Shown: in pieces, positions 8,236-63,392 of the stretch
How positions within the stretch are numbered: position 1 is the stretch's first letter
How the letters are laid out: every line of letters begins with the position of its first letter
Assembly (NCBI GenBank): GCA_002687175.1
Contig: NYZP01000034.1
Coordinates: forward strand, 27,951-91,950
Length of the DNA: 64,000 nucleotides
Direction: 5' to 3'
From: Parcubacteria group bacterium
GTDB lineage: Bacteria > Patescibacteriota > Patescibacteriia > Buchananbacterales > UBA6539
Translations under genes and position numbers: made by a program
The notes under the pieces: model-generated
Database searches by the model: none
Seen by the model: the letters and a program-made list of their open reading frames with translations, nothing else
What the model was told of the DNA's origin: nothing

Positions 8236-9345
8236 ATGTTTAAATTAAAACCAAAAAAAACTGCAGAAAATTCGGAATTTCAGGCTTTAGCTGGTCAGAC
8301 CGAAAATTCTTCAAAAACCAAACGTCACAAAAAAGATCAAGAGCCTAAACCGCTTGATCCAAAAGTAAAGGAGCAAATTCATGTTATGCCCCAGCGGTTT
8401 TACGTTAAACCAAAAAAGAAACGCACTGGTTTAATTATTATTATTGTGGTGGGAGTTTTGTTGATTGGTGGTTTAGGCGGACTGGCTGTCTATTTAGCTC
8501 TTAATTTAGATAACACAAATCCTGCTCCACCAGTTAATACTAACCAAACCGAAACAACAAATACTAATCAAACTGAATCGGTTAACCAAAACAGTAGTAT
8601 TAACCAGAATGCCAATATCAATAACAATGCTAATGTTAACTTAAATACTAACGTTAATTCTAATACCAACGCTAACGTAAATGTTAACACCAACGTAAAT
8701 CAAAATAGTAATACTAACAGTAATCAAAGTGTTAACACCAACACTAATGAAACACCCGAGCCAGAAATTATCAGTTTAACACCTCTACCCCAAGCACCAG
8801 ACAGTGACAATGATGGCTTAACTTTAGCCGAAGAAAGTTTGTACGGTACTAATCCGGAGCTAGGGGATAGTGATGGTGACGGTTTTCTTGATGGTACAGA
8901 ATTACTTAATGGTTATGATCCAATTAGACCGGGAGTAACTTTAGTTGAAGGTGGTATTTTTACTGATTATCTGCATCAATCATATTCAATAATATTTCCC
9001 AAAAATTGGAGCTTGCAGGAACAGGGAGCGACCAAAGACCAAGTATTGTTCATATCAACTACCGGAGAGTTCATTGAAGTGTTGGTCATACCAAATGCCA
9101 ATAATCTATCTTTGACCAATTGGTATCAACAACAGTTTCCGGACATTAGCGTAAGTCAAACTACAGCAGTTACCATTAATAATTTTTTGGGGTTACGTCA
9201 TCCTGACCAGCGCAGTTATTATCTAGTGGCTAATCAAGATGATGACAATATATTTTTGCTAACTTATAATGTTGGAGAATTTACTAAAACGAATTTTACC
9301 ACCACCTTTCAGACTATGGTAAAGCAGTTCAAATATTTACCCTAA
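8236..9345 (+). CDS. Paralog of the 7362..8195 protein: basic N-terminus, one TM helix, long N/T/V-rich linker, TSP3-like repeats and a C-terminal globular domain
   Basis: TM 'LIIIIVVGVLLIGGLGGLAVYLAL'. The linker 'NTNVNSNTNANVNVNTNVNQNSNTNSNQ' is encoded by an AAT/ACT-rich imperfect tandem repeat (8520-8750). Repeats 'DSDNDGLTLAEE' and 'DSDGDGFLDGTE'. Confidence 0.5.
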   Translation: MFKLKPKKTAENSEFQALAGQTENSSKTKRHKKDQEPKPLDPKVKEQIHVMPQRFYVKPKKKRTGLIIIIVVGVLLIGGLGGLAVYLALNLDNTNPAPPVNTNQTETTNTNQTESVNQNSSINQNANINNNANVNLNTNVNSNTNANVNVNTNVNQNSNTNSNQSVNTNTNETPEPEIISLTPLPQAPDSDNDGLTLAEESLYGTNPELGDSDGDGFLDGTELLNGYDPIRPGVTLVEGGIFTDYLHQSYSIIFPKNWSLQEQGATKDQVLFISTTGEFIEVLVIPNANNLSLTNWYQQQFPDISVSQTTAVTINNFLGLRHPDQRSYYLVANQDDDNIFLLTYNVGEFTKTNFTTTFQTMVKQFKYLP

Positions 9346-12413: not shown

Positions 12414-12445
12414 ATTTATAATAAGACACCAGGTCTTATTTTTTA
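12414..12445 (+). terminator. Rho-independent terminator after ftsZ
   Basis: Stem 'ataagac'/'gtcttat' (12421-27 / 12433-39) with a 5-nt loop, followed by a T6 run. Confidence 0.55.
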
Positions 12446-12520
12446 GTCGCCAGAATGGTGAGCTAAACTTTTTTAGTCGCCAGAATTTCGGGCTAAACTT
12501 TTTTAGTCGATAATAACGGT
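12439..12520 (+). repeat. About 2.5 tandem copies of a 30-bp unit 'ttttttagtcgccagaatNNNgNgctaaac' in the nrdJ upstream region (possible operator/regulatory array)
   Basis: Copy 1 at 12439-12468 and copy 2 at 12469-12498 differ at 4 positions. A truncated third copy 'ttttttagtcga' follows at 12499-12510. Confidence 0.6.
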
Positions 12521-15727: not shown

Positions 15728-16267
15728 TTGGTTTATAATAATGTAATGAAAAGCGACCTGGGAAAAATCCATGTCTACACTGGTGACGGCAAAGGAAAAA
15801 CCACTTCGTCATTTGGTTTAACCATGCGCGCCATTGGTGCCGGCTATAAAGTTTATATTATTCAGTTTCTCAAAGGTCAGGACTATAGTGAATTAAAGAT
15901 CATAAAAAAATTGCCTAAAGTTGGTTTTAAACGTTTTGGTCTAAAAACTTTTGTTTATCAAAAAGGCACCAGAGTGGACAAGAGTTTAGCCAAGCAGGCT
16001 TTAGACTGGTCATTCAAAATTGTTAAGTCGGGAAAATATGACATGGTAATCTTAGACGAAATATTTCCCGCAGTTTTTTTTAAACTTATTAAAAACAGTG
16101 ACATCATAAAAATTATCAAAGCCAAGCCAGAAAATGTTGAGCTGGTAATGACTGGCCGTCGGGCTCCTGAGCAAGTTATTAAATTGGCTGATTACGTTAC
16201 TGATATGAAAGAAGTTAAACATCCTTACCAAAAAGGCTTGGTGGCCAGGAAGGGGATTGAGGATTAG
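15728..16267 (+). CDS. cobO: Cob(I)alamin (corrinoid) adenosyltransferase, CobA/CobO/BtuR family
   Basis: 'IHVYTGDGKGKTTSSFGLTMRAIGAGYKVYIIQFLKG' matches the P-loop and N-terminal signature of CobA-type ATP:corrinoid adenosyltransferases. The start may be the ATG at 15746. Confidence 0.7.
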   Translation: MVYNNVMKSDLGKIHVYTGDGKGKTTSSFGLTMRAIGAGYKVYIIQFLKGQDYSELKIIKKLPKVGFKRFGLKTFVYQKGTRVDKSLAKQALDWSFKIVKSGKYDMVILDEIFPAVFFKLIKNSDIIKIIKAKPENVELVMTGRRAPEQVIKLADYVTDMKEVKHPYQKGLVARKGIED

Positions 16268-16270
16268 GTT
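16251..16270 (+). repeat. Direct repeat A (20/20 identical with 17998-18017): the 3' end of cobO, encoding '...VARKGIED*'
   Basis: 'aggggattgaggattaggtt' recurs 1.73 kb downstream. The second copy still encodes 'VVARKGIED*' but with synonymous codon changes (gcc agg -> gct aga). Confidence 0.8.
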
Positions 16271-16289
16271 GTAGGAGATTATTGTTGAT

Positions 16290-16540
16290 TGGCATTATCA
16301 TCAAGGTTGTCATAAATTTAGTGGCCCAGCCCTGAAGGGCAGGGCTATCGTGTAATTGTTATAAGCAGGTGACGAGAGTAGTCCCGCCGGAGGCGGGGCT
16401 TTATTGTATATCCCTGGACTAAAGGATTGGCCTGGGCGAAGGTGGGTACTGAGGTAGATCCATCCATCATTTTATGGGTACGGGGGGGTTGAGAAGGTTG
16501 GGGTAGGGTTTGAAATAGTAAGGGAGTTGATGTAATATAG
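16290..16540 (+). other. GC-rich, hairpin-dense noncoding segment at the left end of the insertion
   Basis: Hairpins 'gccc(a)gccct-UGAA-gggc(a)gggc' (16323-16344) and 'ccgcc-gga-ggcgg' (16385-16397), followed by a G-rich tract (16473-16512). Confidence 0.4.
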
Positions 16541-16544
16541 ATTT

Positions 16545-17978
16545 ATGGAAAGAGAATTAAATTACAATCCAGAAGCTGAGGTTCGCAAGGAACGCACTTC
16601 TCTAAGGGAAATTTTTACTTTAGCAAAAGGCAAAATAGTTGAAGAGCTAATAAAATTTTTGTCGAAAAAAGATGACGAAAAAGTTGAAGCATATGTTAAA
16701 AAGGTGGGAAAAATGGCTGATCTTAATAGAGCCACTGGAGATTTTTTTCGTTCACTTATACCACAATCCTTAAATCTCCCGCAACGGGAATATGAGCATA
16801 CCGATGAAAGAAATGTATATGAGCATCTTGTTGACAATGCGCAATCTGTCCAACAACGTCGTCATCAACAACCAGAAACTATCTCTGGAGAATCTTATAA
16901 AGATTATGCAGATAATCTAGATGACCCCAGTCTTTCTGAAGCCTCGGAAAAAATCAGTGCAGTAGAGGAATCTGAAACTGGTGGGGTTAAGACTCAAAGT
17001 GCAATAGCGTCATATTCACAGGAAGGTGGAAAGAATGTAGTTAGAGAATTTGTTTATAATAATTTTCATACAATGAAAGATGGCAGAGCAGTTAGTTTAT
17101 CATATGCCGCACTCTTGATCGTAGATATTAAAAGTGGTCAAGGAATCGAATTAAAACAATTACTGCCTACTGGCTATGAATTTGTTCCTTCTCAACTTAA
17201 CGAGAGGACTCTTGAATTAGTCAAGGAGAAGGGAGAATCAAGCTCAAAGCTCATCTCACGTTTAATGCGTCATGACCTTAAGGAATACAGAGGAACGAAA
17301 GAAGCAAAGGACAATTTTGTCCTTGCAGGGAAAAAGGTGGAGTATGGCGATCTAACTGAAAAAGGAGGTATGCTATCTCTCTTACATGAGATTGCTCATA
17401 GCTGGCAAAGGGCTCATGATTTGGCAGAAGGGCGATATAACTTTGAAGATTTTTATAAAGAAGTTGGCCTGGAAGTAGCAGTGTTAAATTCTATCAGGAA
17501 AGAAGTTGAAGCAGGAGAATGGGAGCAAGAAGATTATCAAAACAGAGTTCTACCCGAGACGATAGCTGACCTAAAGAAGATTGGTGTAGAAATTGACGAA
17601 GATTATTTTTACCAGACAGACAGACCTGGTCGAAAAGGAGAAATTCGGATAAGAAGGTTGGGCGAAGAGCTACCTAGTGGTGAGTACTCATATGATCACT
17701 TTTTTATCAAAACTGATAAACTTGCCCCCTTGGTTGATGATTACGCCAGAGAAGAACGAGATGCCTGGGCTCATGCCATTCGAGTTTTGCGTTTCTTAAG
17801 AAAAAAAGGGATTGATCTTGAACCACAGCTTAAGAGCTCAAAAGATTTTAGAGAAATTATTGACCCCGCTTTAGGCTCGTATCAAAAAAGTTTAGACAAG
17901 GAAGTTGAGTTTTCCGCCGAACCTGAAAGTAGAAAATTTCTTCGAAGAAAATCAATTGACCAAGCAGATGCGGTCTGA
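16545..17978 (+). CDS. Hypothetical 477-aa protein with an HExxH motif ('LLHEIAHSW'), possibly metallopeptidase-like, encoded inside the insertion
   Basis: The ORF is intact. I recognise no family fold beyond the HEIAH motif. GC is intermediate to high. Confidence 0.4.
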   Translation: MERELNYNPEAEVRKERTSLREIFTLAKGKIVEELIKFLSKKDDEKVEAYVKKVGKMADLNRATGDFFRSLIPQSLNLPQREYEHTDERNVYEHLVDNAQSVQQRRHQQPETISGESYKDYADNLDDPSLSEASEKISAVEESETGGVKTQSAIASYSQEGGKNVVREFVYNNFHTMKDGRAVSLSYAALLIVDIKSGQGIELKQLLPTGYEFVPSQLNERTLELVKEKGESSSKLISRLMRHDLKEYRGTKEAKDNFVLAGKKVEYGDLTEKGGMLSLLHEIAHSWQRAHDLAEGRYNFEDFYKEVGLEVAVLNSIRKEVEAGEWEQEDYQNRVLPETIADLKKIGVEIDEDYFYQTDRPGRKGEIRIRRLGEELPSGEYSYDHFFIKTDKLAPLVDDYAREERDAWAHAIRVLRFLRKKGIDLEPQLKSSKDFREIIDPALGSYQKSLDKEVEFSAEPESRKFLRRKSIDQADAV

Positions 17979-17982
17979 AATG

Positions 17983-18017
17983 ACGTGGTTGCTAGAAAGG
18001 GGATTGAGGATTAGGTT
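17983..18017 (+). pseudogene. Displaced partial duplicate of the cobO 3' end (direct repeat B)
   Basis: A short frame 'NDVVARKGIED*' ends in the same 20-bp sequence as cobO. The identity is higher at the protein level than at the DNA level. Confidence 0.6.
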
Positions 18018-18212
18018 ATAGTAAAGTTAATATAGTTTGCTAAATAAAATCGCCATAGTGATAGATGACGATTTTTTTGACAGAAATCAGTTTGATTATT
18101 TTCTTATTTCGTGATAAAACAAGCTTATTATTGCACTTTGAAATTACCATAACACAAATTTGTGTTTACCAATTTAAATCCGGAAGCGGGTAGCTTACAA
18201 GGAGAAGGCACC

Positions 18213-20547: not shown

Positions 20548-20571
20548 CATATTACCTTAAAAAATAGTTTT

Positions 20572-20760
20572 AATTTCAGGGAAGTGAGGTGTGATTCCTC
20601 CGCTGACCCGCAACTGTGAAACCTCTATCTAAATTAGGTAAGGGGTTAAGCCAGACCACTGAAATTAGAGCTAACTATAATTCACTAAGCTCTTCGAGGT
20701 ACGAGAGTCGGTGATGTCTGATATGGACATTTTCGCTCTCCCTTGAACAGGGAGATTTTT
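20572..20760 (+). promoter_or_regulatory. Cobalamin (AdoCbl) riboswitch with an SD-sequestering terminator-like expression platform
   Basis: 'cagGGAAGtgaGGTGtgAtTCCtccGCTGaCCCGCAACTGTgAA' matches the conserved 5' core of the cobalamin riboswitch. A B12-box-like 'AAGCCAGACCACTG' lies at about 20647-20660. The 3' hairpin 'ctccc ttgaaca gggag' plus U-run (20735-20760) pairs with the 'agggag' SD 9 nt upstream of the ATG at 20766. Confidence 0.7.
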
Positions 20761-20765
20761 AATTT

Positions 20766-22643
20766 ATGAGAACAAAAAGAAATGGTATTCTACCATTCTT
20801 GACTCCTCGGCTCGGAAATAAAAAGTCTAAGACTTTTTATTTCTCTCGCTCTACGTCGTCAATCAAGAATTTTTGTTTAAGCTTAGCGGCCGTGGCAATG
20901 TTGCTGCAGCCGGTTTTAGCTGCCGCCGGAGTTTCTGAAGGCGTTAGCTATTTGGAGGCACAAACTCAAGATCCATGGATTACCATGGCTTTAGTTGCTG
21001 CCGGTGAGTCTGGTATTTCTACCAGTCACTTAACTTCAGTTTCCGGAACTACGGCGACTGACTATGCTAAAACTATTTTAGCTTTAGCCGCAGTTAACGA
21101 AAATCCCGCAACTTTTGGGGTGATTGATTTTGTGGCCGAACTAAAAAGCTATCACCAAGGCGGTCAAATGGGTGATGACAGTTTGATTAACGACGATGCT
21201 TGGTCAATTTTGGCCTTATCATCAGTCGGTGAATCTGGTACGGACGAAATGGAAGATGCCAAAGATTTTATTTTAGACAATCAAAATCCTGATGGTGGTT
21301 GGAGTTGGGGCGTTGGTGGTGCTAGTGATACCAATGACACCTCAGCCATGATCATGGCGTTAATTGAGTCTGGCGTTAGTGCAGGGGACTCAGTTATTAC
21401 TTCAGCTTTAAATTATTTAGAAGAAACCCAAAACGACGATGGTGGTTTTGGTTTTGACGGAGACTCTGATTCTGATTCTGGTTCAGACTCTTGGGTAATT
21501 GCCGCTTTAATTAAAGCCGGCATTAATCCAAACAGTTGGCAAGAGGAAGGTAACAGTCCAATTGACCATCTAGAAACTTTGCAGGATGATGATGGTGGTT
21601 TTTGGTGGGTGCCAGAAGGTGAATCAGAATTTAACAATAAAGCGATGACTGCTTTTGCGGTAGTTGCTTTAAGTGGCTCATCTTATCCGGTTGGTTACTT
21701 TGCCGGTGGTGACGCAGGTCCGCTAGCTGGAACTTTTAGCCTAAGAATTGAAGGGGCTAGTCGCACCATCTGTGACAGTTTTGTTGAAGCGGAAAACGGT
21801 TTAGATATTGTAGAAAACGGTTCAGAAATTTGTGATTACACTTATACTATTGAAGATACCGCTTTTGGTCCTTACTTGTCAGAAGTGGCTGGTGAAGCGG
21901 CTGAAGGTCTTGAAGGTTGGCTTTATCTGGTTGATTATGTTTCACCGCCAATTGGTGCCGCTGATTATGTTTTAGTAGAAGGCGAAGAAGTACTTTGGTA
22001 CTATGGTGAGTGGGGAATTAGTCCACTGCGATTAATTGTTTCCGATGATGAAGTAGATTCTGGAGACAGCACCACAATTACCGTTGAATATTATGAAGAT
22101 GGTTCTTGGCTACCGTTGGCCGGTGCTACTATTAAAGGTGCTGACCAAGACTACACTGCTAACGGTTCAGGACAATTAGCTCTAGGTTTAGATGATGGTT
22201 TTTACAACCTTTACGCCGAAGAAGATGGTTATGTCAGAAGTGCTAAAGTCGGAGTTACCTTTGGCGAGGGAGTTTCCGGAAATATTGGTTTAACCGTTGA
22301 AATTGATCAAGGCGGTGGCGGTGGTGGCGGTGATGGTATTGGTTTAGACATCGATACCAGTAGTATTGACTTTGGTATTTTAAGTCCTGGTGAAATTGCT
22401 GAAAGTATTGTTGGTATCATCGGTAATGTTGGTACTATTGATATCACAGTCAGCGCCTCGGTTTCTGGTGACACACTGTTTACTTCAAATTTAACAATTA
22501 ACGCCGTTGCTCCTAGTCAGTATTCACAAGACTTTAATGCCGGTGAAGGTGGTTCCGCTACTGTCGCCTTAAGTGTGCCAGAAAATTATCTTGGTTCAGG
22601 TGTTAAAAACGGTGAGCTGATTTTTTGGGCCACGCCTCAATAA
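20766..22643 (+). CDS. Secreted protein with prenyltransferase/terpene-cyclase-like (alpha/alpha toroid) repeats plus C-terminal beta-rich domains; first gene of the riboswitch-controlled locus
   Basis: Signal peptide 'LSLAAVAMLLQPVLAAAG'. Repeats 'NPDGGWSWGVGG..AMIMALIESG', 'NDDGGFGFDG..WVIAALIKAG', 'DDDGGFWWVPEG..AFAVVALSG' are of the QxxDGGW type. A poly-Gly tract is present. Confidence 0.55.
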   Translation: MRTKRNGILPFLTPRLGNKKSKTFYFSRSTSSIKNFCLSLAAVAMLLQPVLAAAGVSEGVSYLEAQTQDPWITMALVAAGESGISTSHLTSVSGTTATDYAKTILALAAVNENPATFGVIDFVAELKSYHQGGQMGDDSLINDDAWSILALSSVGESGTDEMEDAKDFILDNQNPDGGWSWGVGGASDTNDTSAMIMALIESGVSAGDSVITSALNYLEETQNDDGGFGFDGDSDSDSGSDSWVIAALIKAGINPNSWQEEGNSPIDHLETLQDDDGGFWWVPEGESEFNNKAMTAFAVVALSGSSYPVGYFAGGDAGPLAGTFSLRIEGASRTICDSFVEAENGLDIVENGSEICDYTYTIEDTAFGPYLSEVAGEAAEGLEGWLYLVDYVSPPIGAADYVLVEGEEVLWYYGEWGISPLRLIVSDDEVDSGDSTTITVEYYEDGSWLPLAGATIKGADQDYTANGSGQLALGLDDGFYNLYAEEDGYVRSAKVGVTFGEGVSGNIGLTVEIDQGGGGGGGDGIGLDIDTSSIDFGILSPGEIAESIVGIIGNVGTIDITVSASVSGDTLFTSNLTINAVAPSQYSQDFNAGEGGSATVALSVPENYLGSGVKNGELIFWATPQ

Positions 22644-33925: not shown

Positions 33926-34909
33926 ATGAATAGAAGTATGCCCGCCAAAGGCGGGTCCGCCTCTGGCGGAAAACAAAAAATTCTAGTGGCCGGTAGTGTA
34001 GCTTATGATCGGATAATGAATTTCCCAGGGTATTTTAAAGATAATATCTTGCCTAATAAAATTCATATCCTAAACGTTTCTTTTTTTATTCAGGATTTAA
34101 AAGAGAGTTTTGGTGGTACTGCCGGTAATATTGTTTATACTCTAGGACTATTAGGTGTTAAGCCAACTCTGTTAGCCAACGTTGGAGCCAAAGATTTTTC
34201 AGTTTATAAAAAATGGTTTCAAAAAAATAAAATTGATATTTCTAAAGTAAAAATTGTTAAAAATCAACAAACTGCCTCAGCATATATAATTACCGATAAG
34301 GCTGATAACCAGATTACTGGATTTTATCCTGGAGCAATGAAAGATCCAATAACTAAGAGTAAAATTGATTTAGCAAAAGTTGGCTTAGCTATTGTATCTC
34401 CTCAGCACCCGGTTGATATGGTAAATCTACCAAAAATTTTTCGAGCAAAAAAAATTCCTTATATATTTGATCCTGGTCAACAAGTAGCCTCACTGTCTGG
34501 TGCTCAATTAAAAAGCGCCATTATTGGCAGCAAGGTTTTAATTGGTAATGATTACGAAATCGCTCTGATACGGAAAAAAACCAGTTTATCTATAAACCAA
34601 CTTCTTAAAAAAACTAATATTTTGATAACCACCTTAGGGGCCAGTGGATCAATGTTGCGACAAGGGAGCAATACAATTAAAATTCCAGCCGCTAAACGAG
34701 CCAATACTCTTGATCCAACTGGTGGGGGCGACGCCTATCGGGCCGGTCTGATTAAAGGGCTAGTAGATGATTTACCTCTACAAAAAGTAGGTCAATTGGC
34801 TACGGTGACAGCTGTTTATTCAGTTGAAAAATATGGCACTCAAGTCCATAAGTTTACCAAGACTGGTTTAGTCAAGAGGTATCGACAAAATTTTAAAGAA
34901 CCTATATAA
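33926..34909 (+). CDS. PfkB-family carbohydrate/nucleoside kinase (likely adenosine kinase) with an N-terminal palindromic-element-encoded insertion
   Basis: 'DPTGGGDAYRAGLIKG' ATP-site motif. N-terminal 'AKGGSASGGK' is encoded by the palindromic unit at 33941-33974. Confidence 0.6.
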   Translation: MNRSMPAKGGSASGGKQKILVAGSVAYDRIMNFPGYFKDNILPNKIHILNVSFFIQDLKESFGGTAGNIVYTLGLLGVKPTLLANVGAKDFSVYKKWFQKNKIDISKVKIVKNQQTASAYIITDKADNQITGFYPGAMKDPITKSKIDLAKVGLAIVSPQHPVDMVNLPKIFRAKKIPYIFDPGQQVASLSGAQLKSAIIGSKVLIGNDYEIALIRKKTSLSINQLLKKTNILITTLGASGSMLRQGSNTIKIPAAKRANTLDPTGGGDAYRAGLIKGLVDDLPLQKVGQLATVTAVYSVEKYGTQVHKFTKTGLVKRYRQNFKEPI

Positions 34910-36277: not shown

Positions 36278-36796
36278 TTGCTTAAGCAAAATATGATAAA
36301 AGAACGAAAATTAAATAGATATTCAAACTATAATTATAATTTACCAGGTTATTATTTTATTACGATATGTGTCCAGGATCGTATAAAGTATTTTGGAAAA
36401 ATTGGTGATGGTCGGATGATTTTAAATAAATACGGAAAAATTGCAATTAAATATTTAATGAAAATCCCAAATTTTTATACGAACGTTGCCATTGATGAAT
36501 TTGTGATAATACCAAATCATATTCACATTATTATTGAAATTAAATCCGTAGGGACAGAACAATGTTCTGTCCCTACGGGGGTCAAAAATATTAATTATGG
36601 TTTATTGTCAAAGGTGGTTAAATCCTTTAAAGACGTTACAACCAAAGAAATTCACGGTGCATTGAATGATTACCATTTTCAATGGCAACGTTCCTTTTAT
36701 GATCATATTATTCGAGATGAAAATGGTTTATATAATATTAGGCAATATATAATTAATAATCCTTCGCAGTGGAACAGAGACAGAAATAATGTTTAA
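36278..36796 (+). mobile_element. IS200/IS605-like Y1 (HuH) transposase, REP-associated tyrosine transposase (RAYT)-like
   Basis: HuH 'NHIHIIIE' and catalytic-Tyr region 'RSFYDHIIRDE'. GC-rich hairpins lie upstream at 36212-36270. A 33-bp perfect palindrome sits inside the CDS at 36546-36578. Confidence 0.6.
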
Positions 36797-38171
36797 CACA
36801 AATTCCAAAATTTTTAGATTTTTTTTAATCTGTTTTATTATAGGTGTCGCTCTGGCATCATTTATTGCAATTAATGATTTTTGGTTGTTTTTGATGGGAT
36901 TATTGATAATGATTGGTTCAGTTTTTTTATGGTCAAAAAAATTTTGGCGCTTTATATTTATCGGCGTAATTATTATTGTTGTAGGAATTTGGCGTTATCA
37001 ATTTTCTGTACCAAAAATAGATGAAACAAAAATATCTTTTTATGTAGAGCAACAAGTTTTTTTTAAAGGTCTGGTAGTCAAAGAAGCTGATCAAAGAATT
37101 AACCATACAAAATTAACTGTTGAGGTTCAAGGATTAGAGAATAAAAAAGTTAACGGTAAAGTCTTAGTCGGTGTACCGTTATATCCTAAGTATCAATATG
37201 GTGACTTGGTTAGCATTAGCTGTAAATTGAGGTCGCCCGAGCCATTCAACGGTTTTGCTTATGATCGATATTTGGCAAAAAGTGATATCTACTCTCAATG
37301 TAGCTTCCCTCGAGTTAAATTAATTAGCCGTGGTAATGGAGACTATCTGTTAACTAAAATTTTTGAATTTAAAAATAAATTAAAATTAATCATTAATAAA
37401 AATTTACCAGAACCACAGGCCAGTTTATTTTCGGCTATTTCGTTAGGGTCACGGCGTGGTGTGCCTCAAGAATTGTCTGACAAATTCAGCATTACTGGCA
37501 CTAGCCATTTGATTGCTATTTCGGGAATGCATATTACCATTATCACAGTCATTCTGATGAAAATTGGTTTAGCGCTTTACCTGCCTCGCAAAAAAGTTTT
37601 CTGGTTAGTTACTTTAATGCTAATTGGCTATGTAACGATGATTGGTTTTCCAGCATCAGCGGTTCGCGCTTCCACCATGGGTTTTTTAGCAATGTGGGCT
37701 TTGTATCTCGGTCGACTTAATCAATCGGTGAATGCTTTAATCTTTGCCGCTTTTGTCATGATTTTGGTAAATCCTAAAATTTTGCGTGACGACATTGGTT
37801 TTCAGCTATCTTTTTGTGCGGTTATAGGTTTAATTTATATGTCACCAATGTTTGAGAAGTGGTTGGCAAAAATGCCGTCGTATTTGGGAATTAAAGAATC
37901 GTTACAAATGACCCTGGCGGCTCAGATTACCACTATGCCATTAATTATTTTTAATTTTGGTCGGTTATCTTTAATTGGTCTGTTAGCAAATCTTCTAGTT
38001 TTACCAGTTTTACCTTATTTAATGATCGTTGGTTTTAGCGCTTTATTATTAAGTCTTGTCTTTACAAGCTACAGTTTTTATTTATTTTGGCCAGTATTTT
38101 TTATTTTATCTTATCTAATTAAAGTAATAGAGTGGTTAAGTCTAGTACCGTTAGCGGCAATAAATTTTTGA
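36789..38171 (+). CDS. comEC: ComEC/Rec2 competence channel, membrane (competence) domain
   Basis: 'SHLIAISGMHITIIT' motif with multiple TM helices. Confidence 0.65.
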   Translation: MFNTNSKIFRFFLICFIIGVALASFIAINDFWLFLMGLLIMIGSVFLWSKKFWRFIFIGVIIIVVGIWRYQFSVPKIDETKISFYVEQQVFFKGLVVKEADQRINHTKLTVEVQGLENKKVNGKVLVGVPLYPKYQYGDLVSISCKLRSPEPFNGFAYDRYLAKSDIYSQCSFPRVKLISRGNGDYLLTKIFEFKNKLKLIINKNLPEPQASLFSAISLGSRRGVPQELSDKFSITGTSHLIAISGMHITIITVILMKIGLALYLPRKKVFWLVTLMLIGYVTMIGFPASAVRASTMGFLAMWALYLGRLNQSVNALIFAAFVMILVNPKILRDDIGFQLSFCAVIGLIYMSPMFEKWLAKMPSYLGIKESLQMTLAAQITTMPLIIFNFGRLSLIGLLANLLVLPVLPYLMIVGFSALLLSLVFTSYSFYLFWPVFFILSYLIKVIEWLSLVPLAAINF

Positions 38172-40170: not shown

Positions 40171-40522
40171 GTCATCCCTGCGAAAGCAGGGATCCAGAAA
40201 TACTATGAGAAGTTACTATACATATATTTTAGCCAGTAAGAGAAATGGAACGCTTTATATTGGTGTTACTAATGATTTAGTCAGGAGAGTTAATGAGCAC
40301 AAAGAAGGTTTGATTAAAGGTTTTACCAGAAAATATAAAGTTAAAATGCTAGTTTATTATGAAGAATTTGATGACATTGGCTTGGCAATTCAAAGGGAGA
40401 AAAATTTGAAGAAGTGGAAGCGCAATTGGAAGTTACTATTAATTGAAAACTTTAATTCTAACTGGGAGGATTTGTACTTCAAGTTATTTTAAATGCTGGA
40501 TCCCTGCTTTCGCAGGGATGAC
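40171..40522 (+). mobile_element. Compact 352-bp mini-element: a GIY-YIG nuclease ORF bracketed by 27-bp perfect inverted-repeat hairpins
   Basis: IR-L 'gtcatccctgcgaaagcagggatccag' (40171-97) and IR-R 'ctggatccctgctttcgcagggatgac' (40496-522). Each is also a GAAA-tetraloop hairpin. Confidence 0.6.
40205..40492 (+). CDS. Small GIY-YIG endonuclease (UPF0213-like)
   Basis: 'YYTYILASKRNGTLYIGVTNDLVRRVNEH' GIY-YIG motif. The true start is the ATG at 40205. Confidence 0.7.
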   Translation: MRSYYTYILASKRNGTLYIGVTNDLVRRVNEHKEGLIKGFTRKYKVKMLVYYEEFDDIGLAIQREKNLKKWKRNWKLLLIENFNSNWEDLYFKLF

Positions 40523-43956: not shown

Positions 43957-44010
43957 TTTCCGCCAGAGGTAGCCTGTCCGTCCTCTGGCGGAGATGCGCC
44001 TATGGCGCAG
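43957..44010. repeat. Intergenic GC-rich palindromic units (CCGCCAGAGG...CCTCTGGCGG; GCGCC-tat-GGCGC)
   Basis: 10-bp stem 'ccgccagagg'/'cctctggcgg' (43961-70 / 43982-91). Same family as the in-frame units at 33941 and 63188. Confidence 0.6.
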
Positions 44011-63002: not shown

Positions 63003-63392
63003 ATGGCTAATAAAGAAAAAATTAAATTAGAGAAGAAAATTAGACGTAAAGGCCGAGTGCGGGTTAAAATTTCGGGAACCGCCAAGAAACCAAGGCTTAA
63101 TGTTTTTCGTAGTTTAAAACATATTTTTGTTCAATTAATTGATGATCAGAAAAGTGTTACGGTAGTTTCAGTTAAAGACTCCGAGATTTCCGCCAAAGGC
63201 GGATCCGCCTCTGGCGGAAAAGAAAGTAAAGTCAAAAAAACTGACATTGCATTTAAAGTAGGGGAACTAGTTGCTGTTAAAGCTAAAGAAAAAGGAATCA
63301 CCGAAATTGTTTTTGATAAATCTAGTAATAAATATCATGGCCGCATTAAAGCTGTAGCTGAAGGAGCCAGAAAAGGCGGCTTAATTTTTTAA
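63003..63392 (+). CDS. rplR: Ribosomal protein L18 carrying an in-frame palindromic-element insertion ('AKGGSASGGK')
   Basis: L18 core 'RLNVFRSLKHIFVQLIDD' and 'KVGELVAVKAKEKGITEIVFD'. The palindromic unit at 63188-63221 is identical in sequence family to 33941-33974. Confidence 0.85.
   Translation: MANKEKIKLEKKIRRKGRVRVKISGTAKKPRLNVFRSLKHIFVQLIDDQKSVTVVSVKDSEISAKGGSASGGKESKVKKTDIAFKVGELVAVKAKEKGITEIVFDKSSNKYHGRIKAVAEGARKGGLIF

What the first reader, a model, noticed from the sequence alone, without database searches (positions are those of the whole stretch)
33941..33974. GC-rich palindromic unit inserted in-frame in a kinase gene and again in ribosomal protein L18 (RPE-like behaviour)
The near-identical 30-nt sequence 'ccgccaaaggcgg(g/a)tccgcctctggcggaaaa' occurs inside the PfkB kinase gene (33941-33974) and inside rplR (63188-63221). 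In both places it encodes the same peptide 'AKGGSASGGK'. Related CCGCC-N3-GGCGG hairpins sit intergenically at 43957-44010 and 16385-16397. A dispersed palindromic element that inserts in frame into housekeeping genes, including a universally conserved r-protein, is reminiscent of Rickettsia palindromic elements. It is striking to find this together with a RAYT-type transposase in the same window.
Basis: seen in the sequence. Interest (0 to 1): 0.65.

Follow-up and report, generated by a model that had tools for sequence, protein, structure and literature searches.

The report
Tiny palindromic insert inside essential genes
A 30-base palindromic DNA unit has been inserted, without breaking the reading frame, into a ribosomal-protein gene and a kinase gene of this marine bacterium; the same unit is scattered through genes of many uncultured bacterial phyla and sits at the edge of tiny nuclease genes next to tRNA genes, which points to a very small mobile DNA family that I could not find described.

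Summary
An exact 30-bp unit made of two 15-nt hairpins, [Y-CCGCC-nnA-GGCGG-R][T-CCGCC-Tnn-GGCGG-A], lies at 33941-33970, directly after the ATG of a PfkB kinase. A second copy lies at 63189-63218 inside rplR. The nearest L18 orthologs are exactly 10 residues shorter, so the insert is lineage-specific.

They show the same unit in CPR/Patescibacteria, Omnitrophota, the PVC group, Ignavibacteria and other phyla.
- It is always a clean 30-bp insertion with no target duplication.
- The sites are TTY|RAA-like.
- In long ORFs it is read as S-A-x-G-G-S-A-x-G-G in 106 of 127 cases, against 45% expected.
- Hosts include DnaK, RpoC, RecG and aminoacyl-tRNA synthetases.
- Stem changes are compensatory.

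The RAYT link is not supported: one homolog lies nearby in 240 loci. Instead, about 80-aa Slx1-like GIY-YIG nuclease genes, looked up independently of the hairpin, carry these hairpins. In 9 of 10 look-ups they are preceded by a duplicated tRNA fragment with a hairpin (or its degenerate trace) in one of its loops. Seven of those carry the CCGCC type.

Best reading: a miniature, non-autonomous, RPE-like selfish palindrome, probably tied to these nuclease cassettes. I found no description of it in the searchable literature.

The parts
33941..33970 (.). Copy 1 of the 30-bp double-hairpin unit: [CCCGCC-AAA-GGCGGG][TCCGCC-TCT-GGCGGA]. It is inserted directly after ATG 33938-33940 of the PfkB-family kinase.
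   Evidence: Deleting it gives ATG|AAA CAA AAA = MKQKILVAGS. The closest solved homolog (3b1n) starts 2 residues before ILVAGS. It folds as two 6-bp hairpins, -13.7 kcal/mol as DNA, z = -4.5.
63189..63218 (.). Copy 2 of the unit: [TCCGCC-AAA-GGCGGA][TCCGCC-TCT-GGCGGA]. It lies inside rplR (L18) between codons ATT (Ile) and AAA (Lys).
   Evidence: The window L18 is 129 aa and its nearest homologs are 119 aa. Removal restores DSEI|KESKVKK, which matches the orthologs. An AlphaFold model puts the insert in a coil between strand 52-58 and helix 79-96, with pLDDT below 50 at residues 66-74.
33926..34909 (+). Host gene 1: PfkB-family carbohydrate/nucleoside kinase.
   Evidence: Pfam PfkB, E = 1.4e-33. 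PDB ribokinase/adenosine kinase homologs. NCBI annotates the start at 33938 (MAF14285.1).
63003..63392 (+). Host gene 2: ribosomal protein L18 (rplR), within the ribosomal-protein operon.
16383..16397 (.). Single 15-nt hairpin unit C-CCGCC-GGA-GGCGG-G, intergenic, in the G-rich leader upstream of ORF 16545-17978. It could be a solo half-unit, or simply part of another structured element.
   Evidence: Membership is not established.
43960..44008 (.). Intergenic variant: CCGCCAGAGG-(12 nt)-CCTCTGGCGG long hairpin preceded by TTTT, followed by a GCGCC-TAT-GGCGC hairpin. It is possibly a degenerate relative, because its outer arms are identical to a canonical AGA/TCT unit.
   Evidence: -20.4 kcal/mol, z = -5.7. 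Relationship is inferred only.
40171..40522 (+). A related kind of cassette in the same window: a small Slx1-like GIY-YIG nuclease ORF (40205-40492). It is bracketed by perfect 27-nt inverted repeats (40171-40197 and 40496-40522), each of which is itself a hairpin (TCCCTGC-N4-GCAGGGA).
   Evidence: The hairpin sequence differs from the CCGCC unit. This shows only that hairpin-plus-minimal-GIY-YIG modules exist in this genome.
36278..36796 (+). RAYT-like Y1 transposase ORF. It was considered as a mobiliser and no link was found.
   Evidence: Pfam Y1_Tnp 23.4 bits (cut-off 23). NCBIfam REP_Tyr_transpos 57 bits (cut-off 80). Its upstream intergenic region holds an ordinary terminator-like hairpin and no CCGCC unit; its 3' end overlaps the next ORF (36789-38171).

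Best explanation
The unit is a miniature selfish palindromic insertion, a 'double-hairpin' element of exactly 30 bp made of two inverted 15-nt hairpins.

SHOWN
- It is copied into TTY|RAA-like sites without target duplication.
- Because 30 bp is 10 codons, it never shifts the reading frame.
- Because it is a palindrome, either orientation gives the same three possible peptides.
- In real genes, almost only the phase read as S-A-x-G-G-S-A-x-G-G survives. That peptide is small, flexible and loop-like.
- In L18 the insert sits in a disordered loop. In the kinase it extends the N-terminus.
- The hairpin stems are kept by compensatory change, so a folded form (single-stranded DNA, cruciform or RNA) is what matters.
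- The same hairpins form the boundary of a family of about 80-aa, Slx1-like (UPF0213) GIY-YIG nuclease cassettes lodged at tRNA genes. The arrangement is: a duplicated tRNA fragment carrying the hairpin(s) in its D-, anticodon or T-loop; then 5-10 nt more of tRNA sequence; then the nuclease ORF; then the intact tRNA.

INFERRED
- The solo 30-mers are the non-autonomous, MITE-like form of this system.
- The structure-specific nuclease makes breaks at or near loop-like TTN|NAA sites or at the hairpin.
- Repair then copies the hairpin, and occasionally the ORF plus tRNA piece, into the break.
- The copies in rplR and the kinase are tolerated passengers, not adaptations.
For: Clean insertion
- Window L18 is 129 aa against 119 aa in its nearest homologs, with a 10-residue gap exactly at the unit.
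- The kinase insert precedes the residue where solved homologs begin.
- Exact 10-residue gaps appear in comparisons for seven other insert-bearing host proteins, including DnaK, CysRS and T9SS-tail proteins.
- Hosts identified by Pfam are Hsp70, RpoC, RecG, class II aaRS, CysRS and a solute-binding protein.
- Deleting the 30-mer restores an ARAGORN-detectable tRNA-Val call (weak acceptor stem) and a tRNA-Leu.

Spread

Anatomy
- The sixth base pair covaries: T-A 87, C-G 24, T-G 4, C-A 5.
- Loops are variable and independent of each other.
- Flanks show T at -3 in 84% and A at +3 in 83%, in coding and non-coding copies alike. This was replicated.
- Compensated stem variants occur: CCTCC/GGAGG, CCGCT/AGCGG, CAGCC/GGCTG and CCACC/GGTGG.

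Reading phase
- 106 of 127 copies in frames of at least 200 codons are read as SAxGG.
- The share of available TTY|RAA sites in that phase is 45.5%, p about 1e-18.
- Frames under 100 codons show no bias.

GIY-YIG link
- The most recurrent ORF family in element-bearing loci is a small GIY-YIG nuclease. Its ORF lies 122 nt or less from a hairpin in 4 of 9 loci, and in one further locus in the replicate set (L214).
- Ten GIY-YIG homologs were looked up by protein identity alone. Nine show the arrangement tRNA fragment with a hairpin (degenerate in L155), then ORF, then intact tRNA. Seven of these carry CCGCC-type hairpins.
- One of them (L143) carries the very 30-mer found in the window's rplR.
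- In 7 of 7 asymmetric doublets the C-G unit is distal to the ORF and the T-A unit is proximal.
- The nucleases best match PDB 1zg2 and 1ywl. PMC1564403 classes these as minimal bacterial Slx1-family GIY-YIG domains, and Slx1 is a structure-specific endonuclease.
Against: - No transposition or cleavage has been observed, and no filled/empty polymorphism between near-identical strains was found. Mobility is inferred from comparisons between species.
- About 97% of copies have no GIY-YIG gene within the fetched flank. Genome-level co-occurrence could not be tested.
- The window's own GIY-YIG cassette uses a different hairpin (TCCCTGC). No CCGCC-associated nuclease is visible in the 74 kb of this genome that I could read.
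- The nuclease association could be indirect. Hairpins might simply accumulate in dead tRNA fragments that the cassettes create. However, the constant 5-10 nt spacing between hairpin and fragment end argues for coupling.
- Loops differ between copies within one genome. Simple copy-paste from one master would not predict this.
- How a fixed 30-bp sequence is delivered to the break is unknown.
Confidence: 0.6

Rival explanations
1. REP/REPIN-type element mobilised by the RAYT-like tyrosine (Y1/HUH) transposase encoded at 36278-36796. The two inverted hairpins would form a very short REPIN recognised as folded single-stranded DNA.
For: - A RAYT-like ORF lies 2.3 kb from copy 1.
- The doublet of inverted hairpins resembles REPIN/BIME architecture.
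- Hairpin covariation fits recognition of a folded strand.
- One locus (L108) has a RAYT homolog 1.2 kb from a unit.
Against: - The ORF is below the NCBIfam RAYT cut-off (57 bits against 80).
- Its upstream intergenic region carries no unit, whereas RAYT genes are typically flanked by their REPs (PMC3733652).
- A homolog is nearby in only 1 of 240 element-bearing loci.
- There is no GTAG or CGTC tag and no 5' guide tetranucleotide. The flanks are TTY and RAA (definitions in PMC3733652 and PMC6006769).
- Most copies are intragenic.
- The same sequence recurs across phyla, whereas REP families are mostly lineage-specific.
Confidence: 0.1
2. A host-beneficial nucleic-acid motif kept in place by selection. 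Examples would be an RNA double hairpin that stabilises mRNA or slows translation, or a DNA site for a conserved binding protein. On this reading it is not selfish mobile DNA.
For: - Stems are conserved with compensatory changes while loops drift.
- Few decayed copies exist: 11 with 1-3 mismatches against 134 perfect.
- The predicted structure is stable, -24 kcal/mol as RNA.
Against: - Positions are not conserved between orthologs.
- Hosts are functionally unrelated.
- Copies occur in coding, intergenic and broken-tRNA contexts alike.
- The unit has T-run/A-run polarity that cannot terminate transcription on either strand.
- No Rfam family matches.
- The perfect-stem excess is partly an ascertainment effect of the search pattern.
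Confidence: 0.1
3. The hairpins are repair scars or safe-haven passengers that are unrelated to the GIY-YIG genes. The cassettes create dead tRNA fragments whose TTN|NAA loops are neutral landing sites for an element mobilised by something else.
For: - tRNA loops fit the general target consensus.
- Most copies are far from any GIY-YIG gene.
Against: - The hairpin (or its degenerate trace in L155) is present in 9 of 10 independently sampled cassettes.
- It is always 5-10 nt from the fragment/cassette boundary.
- It has a fixed polarity relative to the ORF in 7 of 7 asymmetric cases.
Confidence: 0.15
4. The peptide is the selected object: convergent acquisition of a flexible GGSASGG-type linker. 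Alternatively, the unit is removed at the RNA level like a mini-intron.
For: The peptide is glycine/serine-rich and linker-like, and it sits in loops.
Against: - Identity is at the nucleotide level, including synonymous sites, in genomes of 27-58% GC.
- The same DNA occurs in non-coding DNA and in the other two frames.
- If the unit were spliced out, there would be no phase bias, yet 83% of copies are in one phase.
Confidence: 0.03

Closest known systems
Rickettsia palindromic elements (RPEs)
   Same: Palindromic selfish DNA that inserts in frame into unrelated housekeeping genes. It is translated as an extra peptide that the protein fold tolerates (PMC10969869, citing Ogata et al. 2000).
   Different: - RPEs are about 150 bp and fall into ten families within one genus. 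This unit is 30 bp, with one core sequence found across many phyla.
- Here there is a defined TTY|RAA target and a candidate partner gene.
- There is no sequence similarity to RPEs.
REP / REPIN elements with RAYT transposases
   Same: Short GC-rich hairpins, often paired in inverted orientation, and thought to be recognised as folded single strands. REPs are occasionally found inside genes (PMC3733652).
   Different: - No GTAG or CGTC tag and no guide tetranucleotide.
- The two hairpins abut directly, giving 30 bp in total.
- Copies are mostly intragenic.
- The unit is not species-specific.
- There is no RAYT association.
Free-standing GIY-YIG homing endonucleases in tRNA gene regions (phage T4 SegB)
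   Same: A GIY-YIG nuclease gene lodged among tRNA genes. It is inherited together with flanking tRNA DNA after cleavage (PMC2330249). SegB-driven segmental amplification has also been reported (abstract of PMC13096335).
   Different: - The nucleases here are about 80 aa and consist of the catalytic domain alone. They are of the Slx1/UPF0213 type, not the I-TevI/Seg type with a DNA-binding domain.
- They are bacterial and chromosomal.
- They are always paired with a GC hairpin inside a broken tRNA copy.
- The hairpin also spreads on its own.
[quoted passage not shown]
   Same: Coding DNA with dyad symmetry, so that both orientations encode a similar peptide. PARCELs are patchily distributed across distant microbes and are thought to move horizontally (PMC2996958).
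   Different: PARCELs encode 25-residue amphipathic repeats in tandem arrays within proteins of unknown function. They are not single 10-residue inserts in conserved enzymes, and they have no hairpin-stem conservation of this kind.
GC clusters and double-hairpin elements of fungal mitochondria (from my own knowledge; not checked against a paper here)
   Same: Very short GC-rich palindromes or double hairpins in AT-rich genomes. They insert into coding and RNA genes and are suspected to be mobile.
   Different: They are organellar, differ in sequence and size, and have no linked nuclease cassette of this type.
Bacterial MITEs
   Same: Non-autonomous derivatives that greatly outnumber the gene-carrying form. 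They have inverted-repeat structure.
   Different: MITEs have terminal inverted repeats plus target-site duplications, are usually larger than 50 bp, and derive from IS transposases. This unit has no duplication, is 30 bp, and its candidate partner is a nuclease rather than a transposase.

Membership tests
Rickettsia palindromic elements | About 100-150 bp palindromic repeat belonging to one of the RPE families of Rickettsia | tested here: not met
   The unit is 30 bp. The host is a marine Parcubacteria-group MAG. RPE size is taken from PMC10969869.
Rickettsia palindromic elements | In-frame insertion into unrelated protein-coding genes, translated with the host protein | tested here: met
   Translation is inferred from intact ORFs and the phase bias, not observed directly.
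REP / REPIN-RAYT | GTAG or CGTC tag, or a 4-nt guide, at the 5' foot of the hairpin | tested here: not met
   The flank profile of 121 + 108 copies is T-rich on the left and A-rich on the right, with no tag. Definitions come from PMC3733652 and PMC6006769.
REP / REPIN-RAYT | RAYT gene flanked by, or co-located with, its REPs | tested here: not met
   The upstream intergenic region of the window's RAYT-like ORF lacks the unit. tblastn found a homolog in 1 of 120 and 0 of 120 element-bearing loci.
REP / REPIN-RAYT | Predominantly extragenic location | tested here: not met
   About half of all copies lie in stop-free frames of at least 200 codons.
MITE (IS-derived) | Terminal inverted repeats with a target-site duplication | tested here: not met
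   Removing exactly 30 bp restores the ortholog sequence, and there is no direct repeat at the flanks.
Intrinsic terminator | GC hairpin followed by a U-run on the transcribed strand | tested here: not met
   The T-run precedes the hairpins and the A-run follows them on both strands.
Known structured RNA (Rfam) | Match to a curated covariance model | tested here: not met
   No family was found at the gathering threshold in the window. Only chance-level hits appeared at E <= 1 around the rplR copy.
Slx1-like / UPF0213 minimal GIY-YIG nucleases (the associated ORFs) | GIY-YIG catalytic domain alone, about 80-100 aa, closest to the bacterial Slx1-family structures 1zg2 and 1ywl | tested here: met
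   Pfam GIY-YIG. phmmer against the PDB: 1zg2 at E = 8e-8 and 1ywl at E = 5e-5 for the L047 protein; 1ywl at E = 3e-5 for the window protein. Classification is from PMC1564403.
Slx1-like / UPF0213 minimal GIY-YIG nucleases (the associated ORFs) | Structure-specific cleavage of branched or hairpin DNA | not testable with these tools
   This needs biochemistry. It is inferred from family knowledge only.
Homing endonuclease gene | The nuclease cleaves the cassette-free allele, and the cassette is copied in by repair | not testable with these tools
   Only the footprint is seen: duplicated tRNA fragments and a decayed earlier ORF copy (86-nt direct repeat in L129).

The most novel reading that the evidence does not exclude
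The 15-nt hairpin module together with an about 80-aa, domain-minimal, Slx1-like GIY-YIG nuclease forms a previously unrecognised kind of mobile system. It would be nuclease-driven rather than transposase-driven. Its non-autonomous form is only 30 bp, which to my knowledge would make it one of the smallest mobile units described. That form has spread across at least ten bacterial phyla, and it colonises essential genes and tRNA genes by exploiting a reading phase that encodes a harmless Gly/Ser/Ala loop.
Probability: 0.35. Interest if true: 0.9.

Novelty: new variant of a known kind. Interest (0 to 1): 0.75.

Why it matters
- It would be an extreme case of selfish DNA living inside essential genes (L18, RpoC, DnaK, aaRS, RecG), in organisms with the smallest known bacterial genomes. 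It would also be a recurrent source of 10-residue length variation in 'universal' marker proteins used for phylogeny.
- The out-of-phase readings of the unit (FRQRRIRLWRK-like and PPEADPPLAE-like) may also seed spurious ORF calls where copies lie in non-coding DNA.
- It gives a concrete, testable substrate hypothesis for the large and functionally obscure family of minimal bacterial GIY-YIG (UPF0213/Slx1-like) proteins.
- A hairpin-guided 80-aa nuclease with a defined TTN|NAA insertion outcome would interest people working on mobile-element mechanisms and on tool development.
- Its presence across phyla in groundwater, marine and sediment communities makes it a possible tracer of DNA exchange among ultra-small bacteria.

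Tried and rejected
- RAYT link. The upstream flank of the window gene was read, and tblastn of the RAYT-like protein was run against 240 element-bearing loci. There was only one nearby homolog, so the link was rejected as the main explanation.
- Known RNA family. Rfam was run at the gathering threshold and at a permissive E-value. Nothing was found.
- Literature. Exact-sequence and peptide strings, CPR plus palindromic elements, Patescibacteria plus REP/RAYT, and GIY-YIG plus tRNA plus hairpin were all searched. No description of this unit or of the cassette architecture was found. Only open-access texts and preprints are covered.
- Peptide-motif search of the 5.8-billion protein set.
- The search for related loci with a five-sequence GIY-YIG alignment. 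I replaced it with a protein search plus exact look-ups.
- Strain polymorphism. An apparent 48-nt difference between L137 and L138 turned out to be a difference in gene calls, not an indel. No empty-site allele of the window L18 exists in the protein database; the next hit is 66% identical.
- Cultured-organism records. No match was found in PLSDB plasmids or GenBank phages at E <= 1.
- Assembly artefact or adaptor. Rejected, because there are identical copies in four independent assemblies, the ORFs are intact, and loops vary naturally.
- Extended flank pairing, meaning insertion only at tips of long palindromes. Flank positions beyond +/-4 pair at about the random rate. It holds for tRNA loops and for Omnitrophota heptamer palindromes, but not in general.
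Full report
**1. The observation**

Both copies are present. CCGCCAAAGGCGG(G/A)TCCGCCTCTGGCGGAAAA lies at 33942-33973 and 63190-63221, with none expected in shuffles. The half-motif CCGCC-N3-GGCGG occurs five times in the window against 0.02 expected. Both copies are in frame and encode AKGGSASGGK.

The window is a 33-46% GC, almost single-stranded gene array. It comes from a marine Parcubacteria-group MAG sampled by Tara at station 37, mesopelagic, 0.1-0.22 um; the NCBI proteins are MAF14327.1 and MAF14285.1. The identical 30-mer is present in rplR in four independent assemblies, so it is not an assembly artefact.

**2. Boundaries and lineage specificity**

- The window L18 is 129 aa. Its closest database relatives (60-69% identity) are almost all 118-119 aa. 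The alignment shows one 10-residue gap exactly at the unit, with the flanking Ile and Lys conserved in the orthologs: DSEI|K against DIEVK, DAEIK and DSEIK.
- Staphylococcus L18 in solved ribosomes shows the same gap.
- The insert is therefore 63189-63218 = TCCGCCAAAGGCGGA + TCCGCCTCTGGCGGA, with no target duplication.
- A distant L18 (P0069, 46% identical) carries SAKGGSASGGK in the same loop. Intermediate relatives lack it, so the loop appears to have been hit independently.
- In the kinase, the unit (33941-33970) follows ATG 33938-33940. Removing it gives MKQKILVAGS, and the closest solved homolog begins two residues before the ILVAGS-equivalent.
- An AlphaFold model of the window L18 (mean pLDDT 83.5) puts the insert in a coil between strand 52-58 and helix 79-96, with pLDDT below 50 at 66-74. 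That is a disordered loop. Whether it faces solvent in the ribosome was not tested.

**3. The unit is widespread**

It also hit five IMG/VR contigs, two of which hold clearly the same unit.

From the 80 record titles shown, the hosts include:
- many CPR lineages (Saccharibacteria, Kaiser-, Lipton-, Magasanik-, Doudna-, Moran-, Portnoy-, Buchanan- and Daviesbacteria, among others);
- Omnitrophota;
- Kiritimatiellae, Verrucomicrobiota, Lentisphaerae and Planctomycetes;
- Ignavibacteria and Bacteroidota;
- MAGs labelled Gammaproteobacteria;
- Dehalococcoidia, Firestonebacteria and Clostridia-type MAGs.

A few hits in genomes above 60% GC look like chance and were excluded from the statistics. No match exists in PLSDB plasmids or GenBank phages.

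**4. Anatomy from 121 + 108 copies**

- Each half is a 6-bp stem with a 3-nt loop. The sixth pair covaries: T-A 87, C-G 24, T-G 4, C-A 5.
- The left loop is nnA and the right loop is Tnn, so the two halves are inverted copies of one 15-nt module. Their variable loop bases are independent of each other: loops are complementary in 19 of 121 copies, about the chance rate.
- Outside the 30-mer the only conserved positions are T-rich on the left (-4 to -2: T 55%, T 84%, T/C) and A-rich on the right (+2 to +4: A/G, A 83%, A 57%). The profile is the same in coding and non-coding copies.
- Ortholog alignments show that these flanks are ancestral, so they describe a TTY|RAA-like target and are not part of the element.
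- In 0.95 Mb there are 134 perfect copies and only 11 with 1-3 stem mismatches. Several of those are compensated (CCTCC/GGAGG, CCGCT/AGCGG, CAGCC/GGCTG).
- The unit is predicted to fold stably: -14 to -15 kcal/mol as DNA and -21 to -24 kcal/mol as RNA, with z between -3.4 and -5.6.
- The T-run/A-run polarity rules out a terminator on either strand. Rfam has nothing matching.

**5. Behaviour in genes**

- In comparisons for seven other insert-bearing host proteins, a homolog lacking the unit shows an exact 10-residue gap. These include DnaK, CysRS, a solute-binding protein, T9SS C-terminal domains, and homologs of two window ORFs.
- Hosts confirmed by Pfam are Hsp70, RNA polymerase beta-prime, RecG, a class II aaRS, CysRS and an SBP.
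- The three reading phases give SAxGGSAxGG, (F)RQRRIRLWRK and (F)PPEADPPLAE. Because of the palindrome, both orientations give the same set.
- In stop-free frames of at least 200 codons the counts are 54/7/5 in genomes and 52/2/7 in metagenomes. In frames under 100 codons they are about even.
- TTY|RAA sites in long frames are distributed 45.5% / 10.4% / 44.1% over the corresponding phases. The 106 of 127 excess therefore has p of about 1e-18.
- This is the signature of selection on a translated insert. It also argues against removal at the RNA level.

**6. What travels with it**

It has no unit in its upstream intergenic region. A homolog appears near the unit in only 1 of 240 loci.

*GIY-YIG.* Clustering all ORFs of the element-bearing loci gave one stand-out family, small GIY-YIG nucleases. 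They occur in 10 loci including the window, and in 4 of 9 the ORF is 122 nt or less from a hairpin.

Reading those loci showed a fixed architecture:
1. a duplicated fragment of the neighbouring tRNA gene, with the hairpin(s) inserted in its D-loop or anticodon loop;
2. 5-10 nt more of tRNA sequence;
3. a short leader;
4. the about 80-aa ORF;
5. the intact tRNA a few bases after the stop codon.

L072 is the mirror arrangement.

*Test without circularity.* I searched for homologs of one such nuclease and looked up ten of them by exact protein sequence only. Nine of ten show the same architecture. Seven carry CCGCC-type hairpins; two (tRNA-Arg cassettes, one from the cultured Winogradskyella immobilis) carry a different hairpin, CCTGCC...GGCAGG, in the D-loop.

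| Locus | tRNA and site | Hairpins |
|---|---|---|
| L129, L132, L135 | tRNA-Ser, D-loop and/or anticodon loop | CCGCC type |
| L136 | T-loop, GGTTC\|GAATCC, with two tandem ORFs | CCGCC type |
| L143 | tRNA-Asn | The same 30-mer as the window's rplR copy |
| L151 | Woesebacteria | CCACC/GGTGG + CCGCC doublet |
| L154 | Azambacteria, tRNA-Glu D-loop | CCGCC type |
| L155 | tRNA-Glu anticodon loop | Degenerate CCGCC type |

Further points:
- L214 from the metagenome replicate repeats the pattern.
- In all seven asymmetric doublets the C-G unit is distal to the ORF and the T-A unit is proximal.
- In L129 the upstream copy also retains a decayed 3' end of an earlier ORF (86-nt direct repeat), which indicates repeated duplication at the site.
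- The nucleases match the bacterial UPF0213 structures 1zg2 and 1ywl best. PMC1564403 classes these as minimal, domain-only members of the Slx1 family of structure-specific endonucleases.
- The window itself holds a related module with another hairpin: GIY-YIG ORF 40205-40492 between perfect 27-nt hairpin-forming inverted repeats.

**7. Interpretation**

*Shown:*
- a discrete 30-bp palindromic insertion with a target preference;
- lineage-specific presence;
- distribution across phyla;
- selection for one reading phase;
- structural conservation of the stems;
- tight physical and polar association with a family of minimal GIY-YIG cassettes at tRNA genes.

*Inferred:*
- The solo 30-mers are the non-autonomous form of that system.
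- The nuclease provides the break, at loop-like TTN|NAA sites or a fixed short distance from a bound hairpin.
- Repair installs the hairpin.
- The copies in rplR and the kinase are neutral passengers.

I put about 0.85 on 'selfish, repeatedly inserted 30-bp element' and about 0.45 on 'the GIY-YIG nuclease is its mobiliser'. For the combined statement I give 0.6.

*Main weaknesses:*
- no observed mobility and no empty-site polymorphism;
- no genome-level co-occurrence test;
- no CCGCC-linked nuclease in the 74 kb of the source genome that I could read;
- loop variation within genomes that remains unexplained.

**8. Comparison with known systems and novelty**

- It behaves like RPEs (in-frame, translated palindromes), but it is five times shorter and not genus-bound.
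- It resembles REP/REPINs in being paired hairpins. It fails their defining tag, their extragenic location and their RAYT association.
- The cassettes recall free-standing GIY-YIG homing endonucleases in tRNA regions (T4 SegB, PMC2330249), but they have a different, minimal nuclease type and an obligatory hairpin.
- PARCELs share only the property of coding equally in either orientation.
- Six literature searches found no description of the unit or of the cassette architecture. The library covers only open-access papers and preprints, so prior description elsewhere cannot be excluded.
- I classify it as a new variant of a known kind, namely palindromic selfish DNA in genes. There is a substantial chance (about 0.35) that the hairpin-plus-minimal-nuclease system is a new kind of mobile element.

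Noticed in passing
window 16231-18021: Direct repeats 16231-16274 and 17978-18021 are 84% identical. They duplicate the 3' end of the cobO-like ORF 15728-16267. Between them lie a G-rich, possibly structured leader (16268-16544) and ORF 16545-17978 (477 aa), which has no Pfam, NCBIfam or PHROG hit and no Rfam hit. This looks like an insertion with target duplication, of unknown type.
   Followed up: partly
window 40171-40522: GIY-YIG ORF (40205-40492) flanked by perfect 27-nt inverted repeats: GTCATCCCTGCGAAAGCAGGGATCCAG and its complement. Each repeat is itself a hairpin, giving a compact TIR-nuclease-TIR cassette. The hairpin occurs only at these two places in the window.
   Followed up: partly
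L084 6107 and 7397; L108 713 and 2425; L053 3243 (Omnitrophota): The double hairpin sits at the apex of long palindromes built from tandem heptamers: (GTTACAG)n on the left and (CTGTAAC)n on the right. L108 also carries a RAYT homolog 1.2 kb away.
   Followed up: no
L013 4588 and 6409; L077 7326; L008 4485; L044 676 (Kiritimatiellae/Verrucomicrobia): The double hairpin is the 5' part of a longer repeat, CATAGGAATTTT[unit]ACAATCCGTCTTTGTTGTCATTCCGAGCGTAG..GAGGAATCTC... In L008 a second hairpin type of the same style lies directly upstream of a GIY-YIG ORF.
   Followed up: no
L115 about 2400-2560; L037 4062; L202 2425: L115 has tandem partial tRNA 5' halves, each with a double hairpin in the D-loop. 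L037 has a tRNA 5' fragment with a hairpin just upstream of an intact tRNA-Val. In L202, deleting the unit restores a complete tRNA-Leu(TAA) with the junction in the anticodon loop. Whether any such tRNA is functional is unknown.
   Followed up: partly
L047, L041, L132 (tRNA-Ser 3' ends): The hairpin arm TCCGCC(A) is identical to the 3' end of the tRNA-Ser genes next to several cassettes (...CTCCGCCA). This could be coincidence or a hint to the origin of the hairpin module. It was not tested.
   Followed up: no
window 20553-20717: AdoCbl riboswitch (Rfam RF01482, 57.6 bits) upstream of ORF 20766-22643, downstream of the cobO-like gene region.
   Followed up: no
window 12439-12498 and 8614-8751: An exact-register 30-nt tandem duplication (TTTTTTAGTCGCCAGAAT...GCTAAAC, twice) lies in an intergenic region. 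Separately, an AAT/AAC-rich 24-nt periodic repeat lies inside ORF 8236-9345.
   Followed up: no
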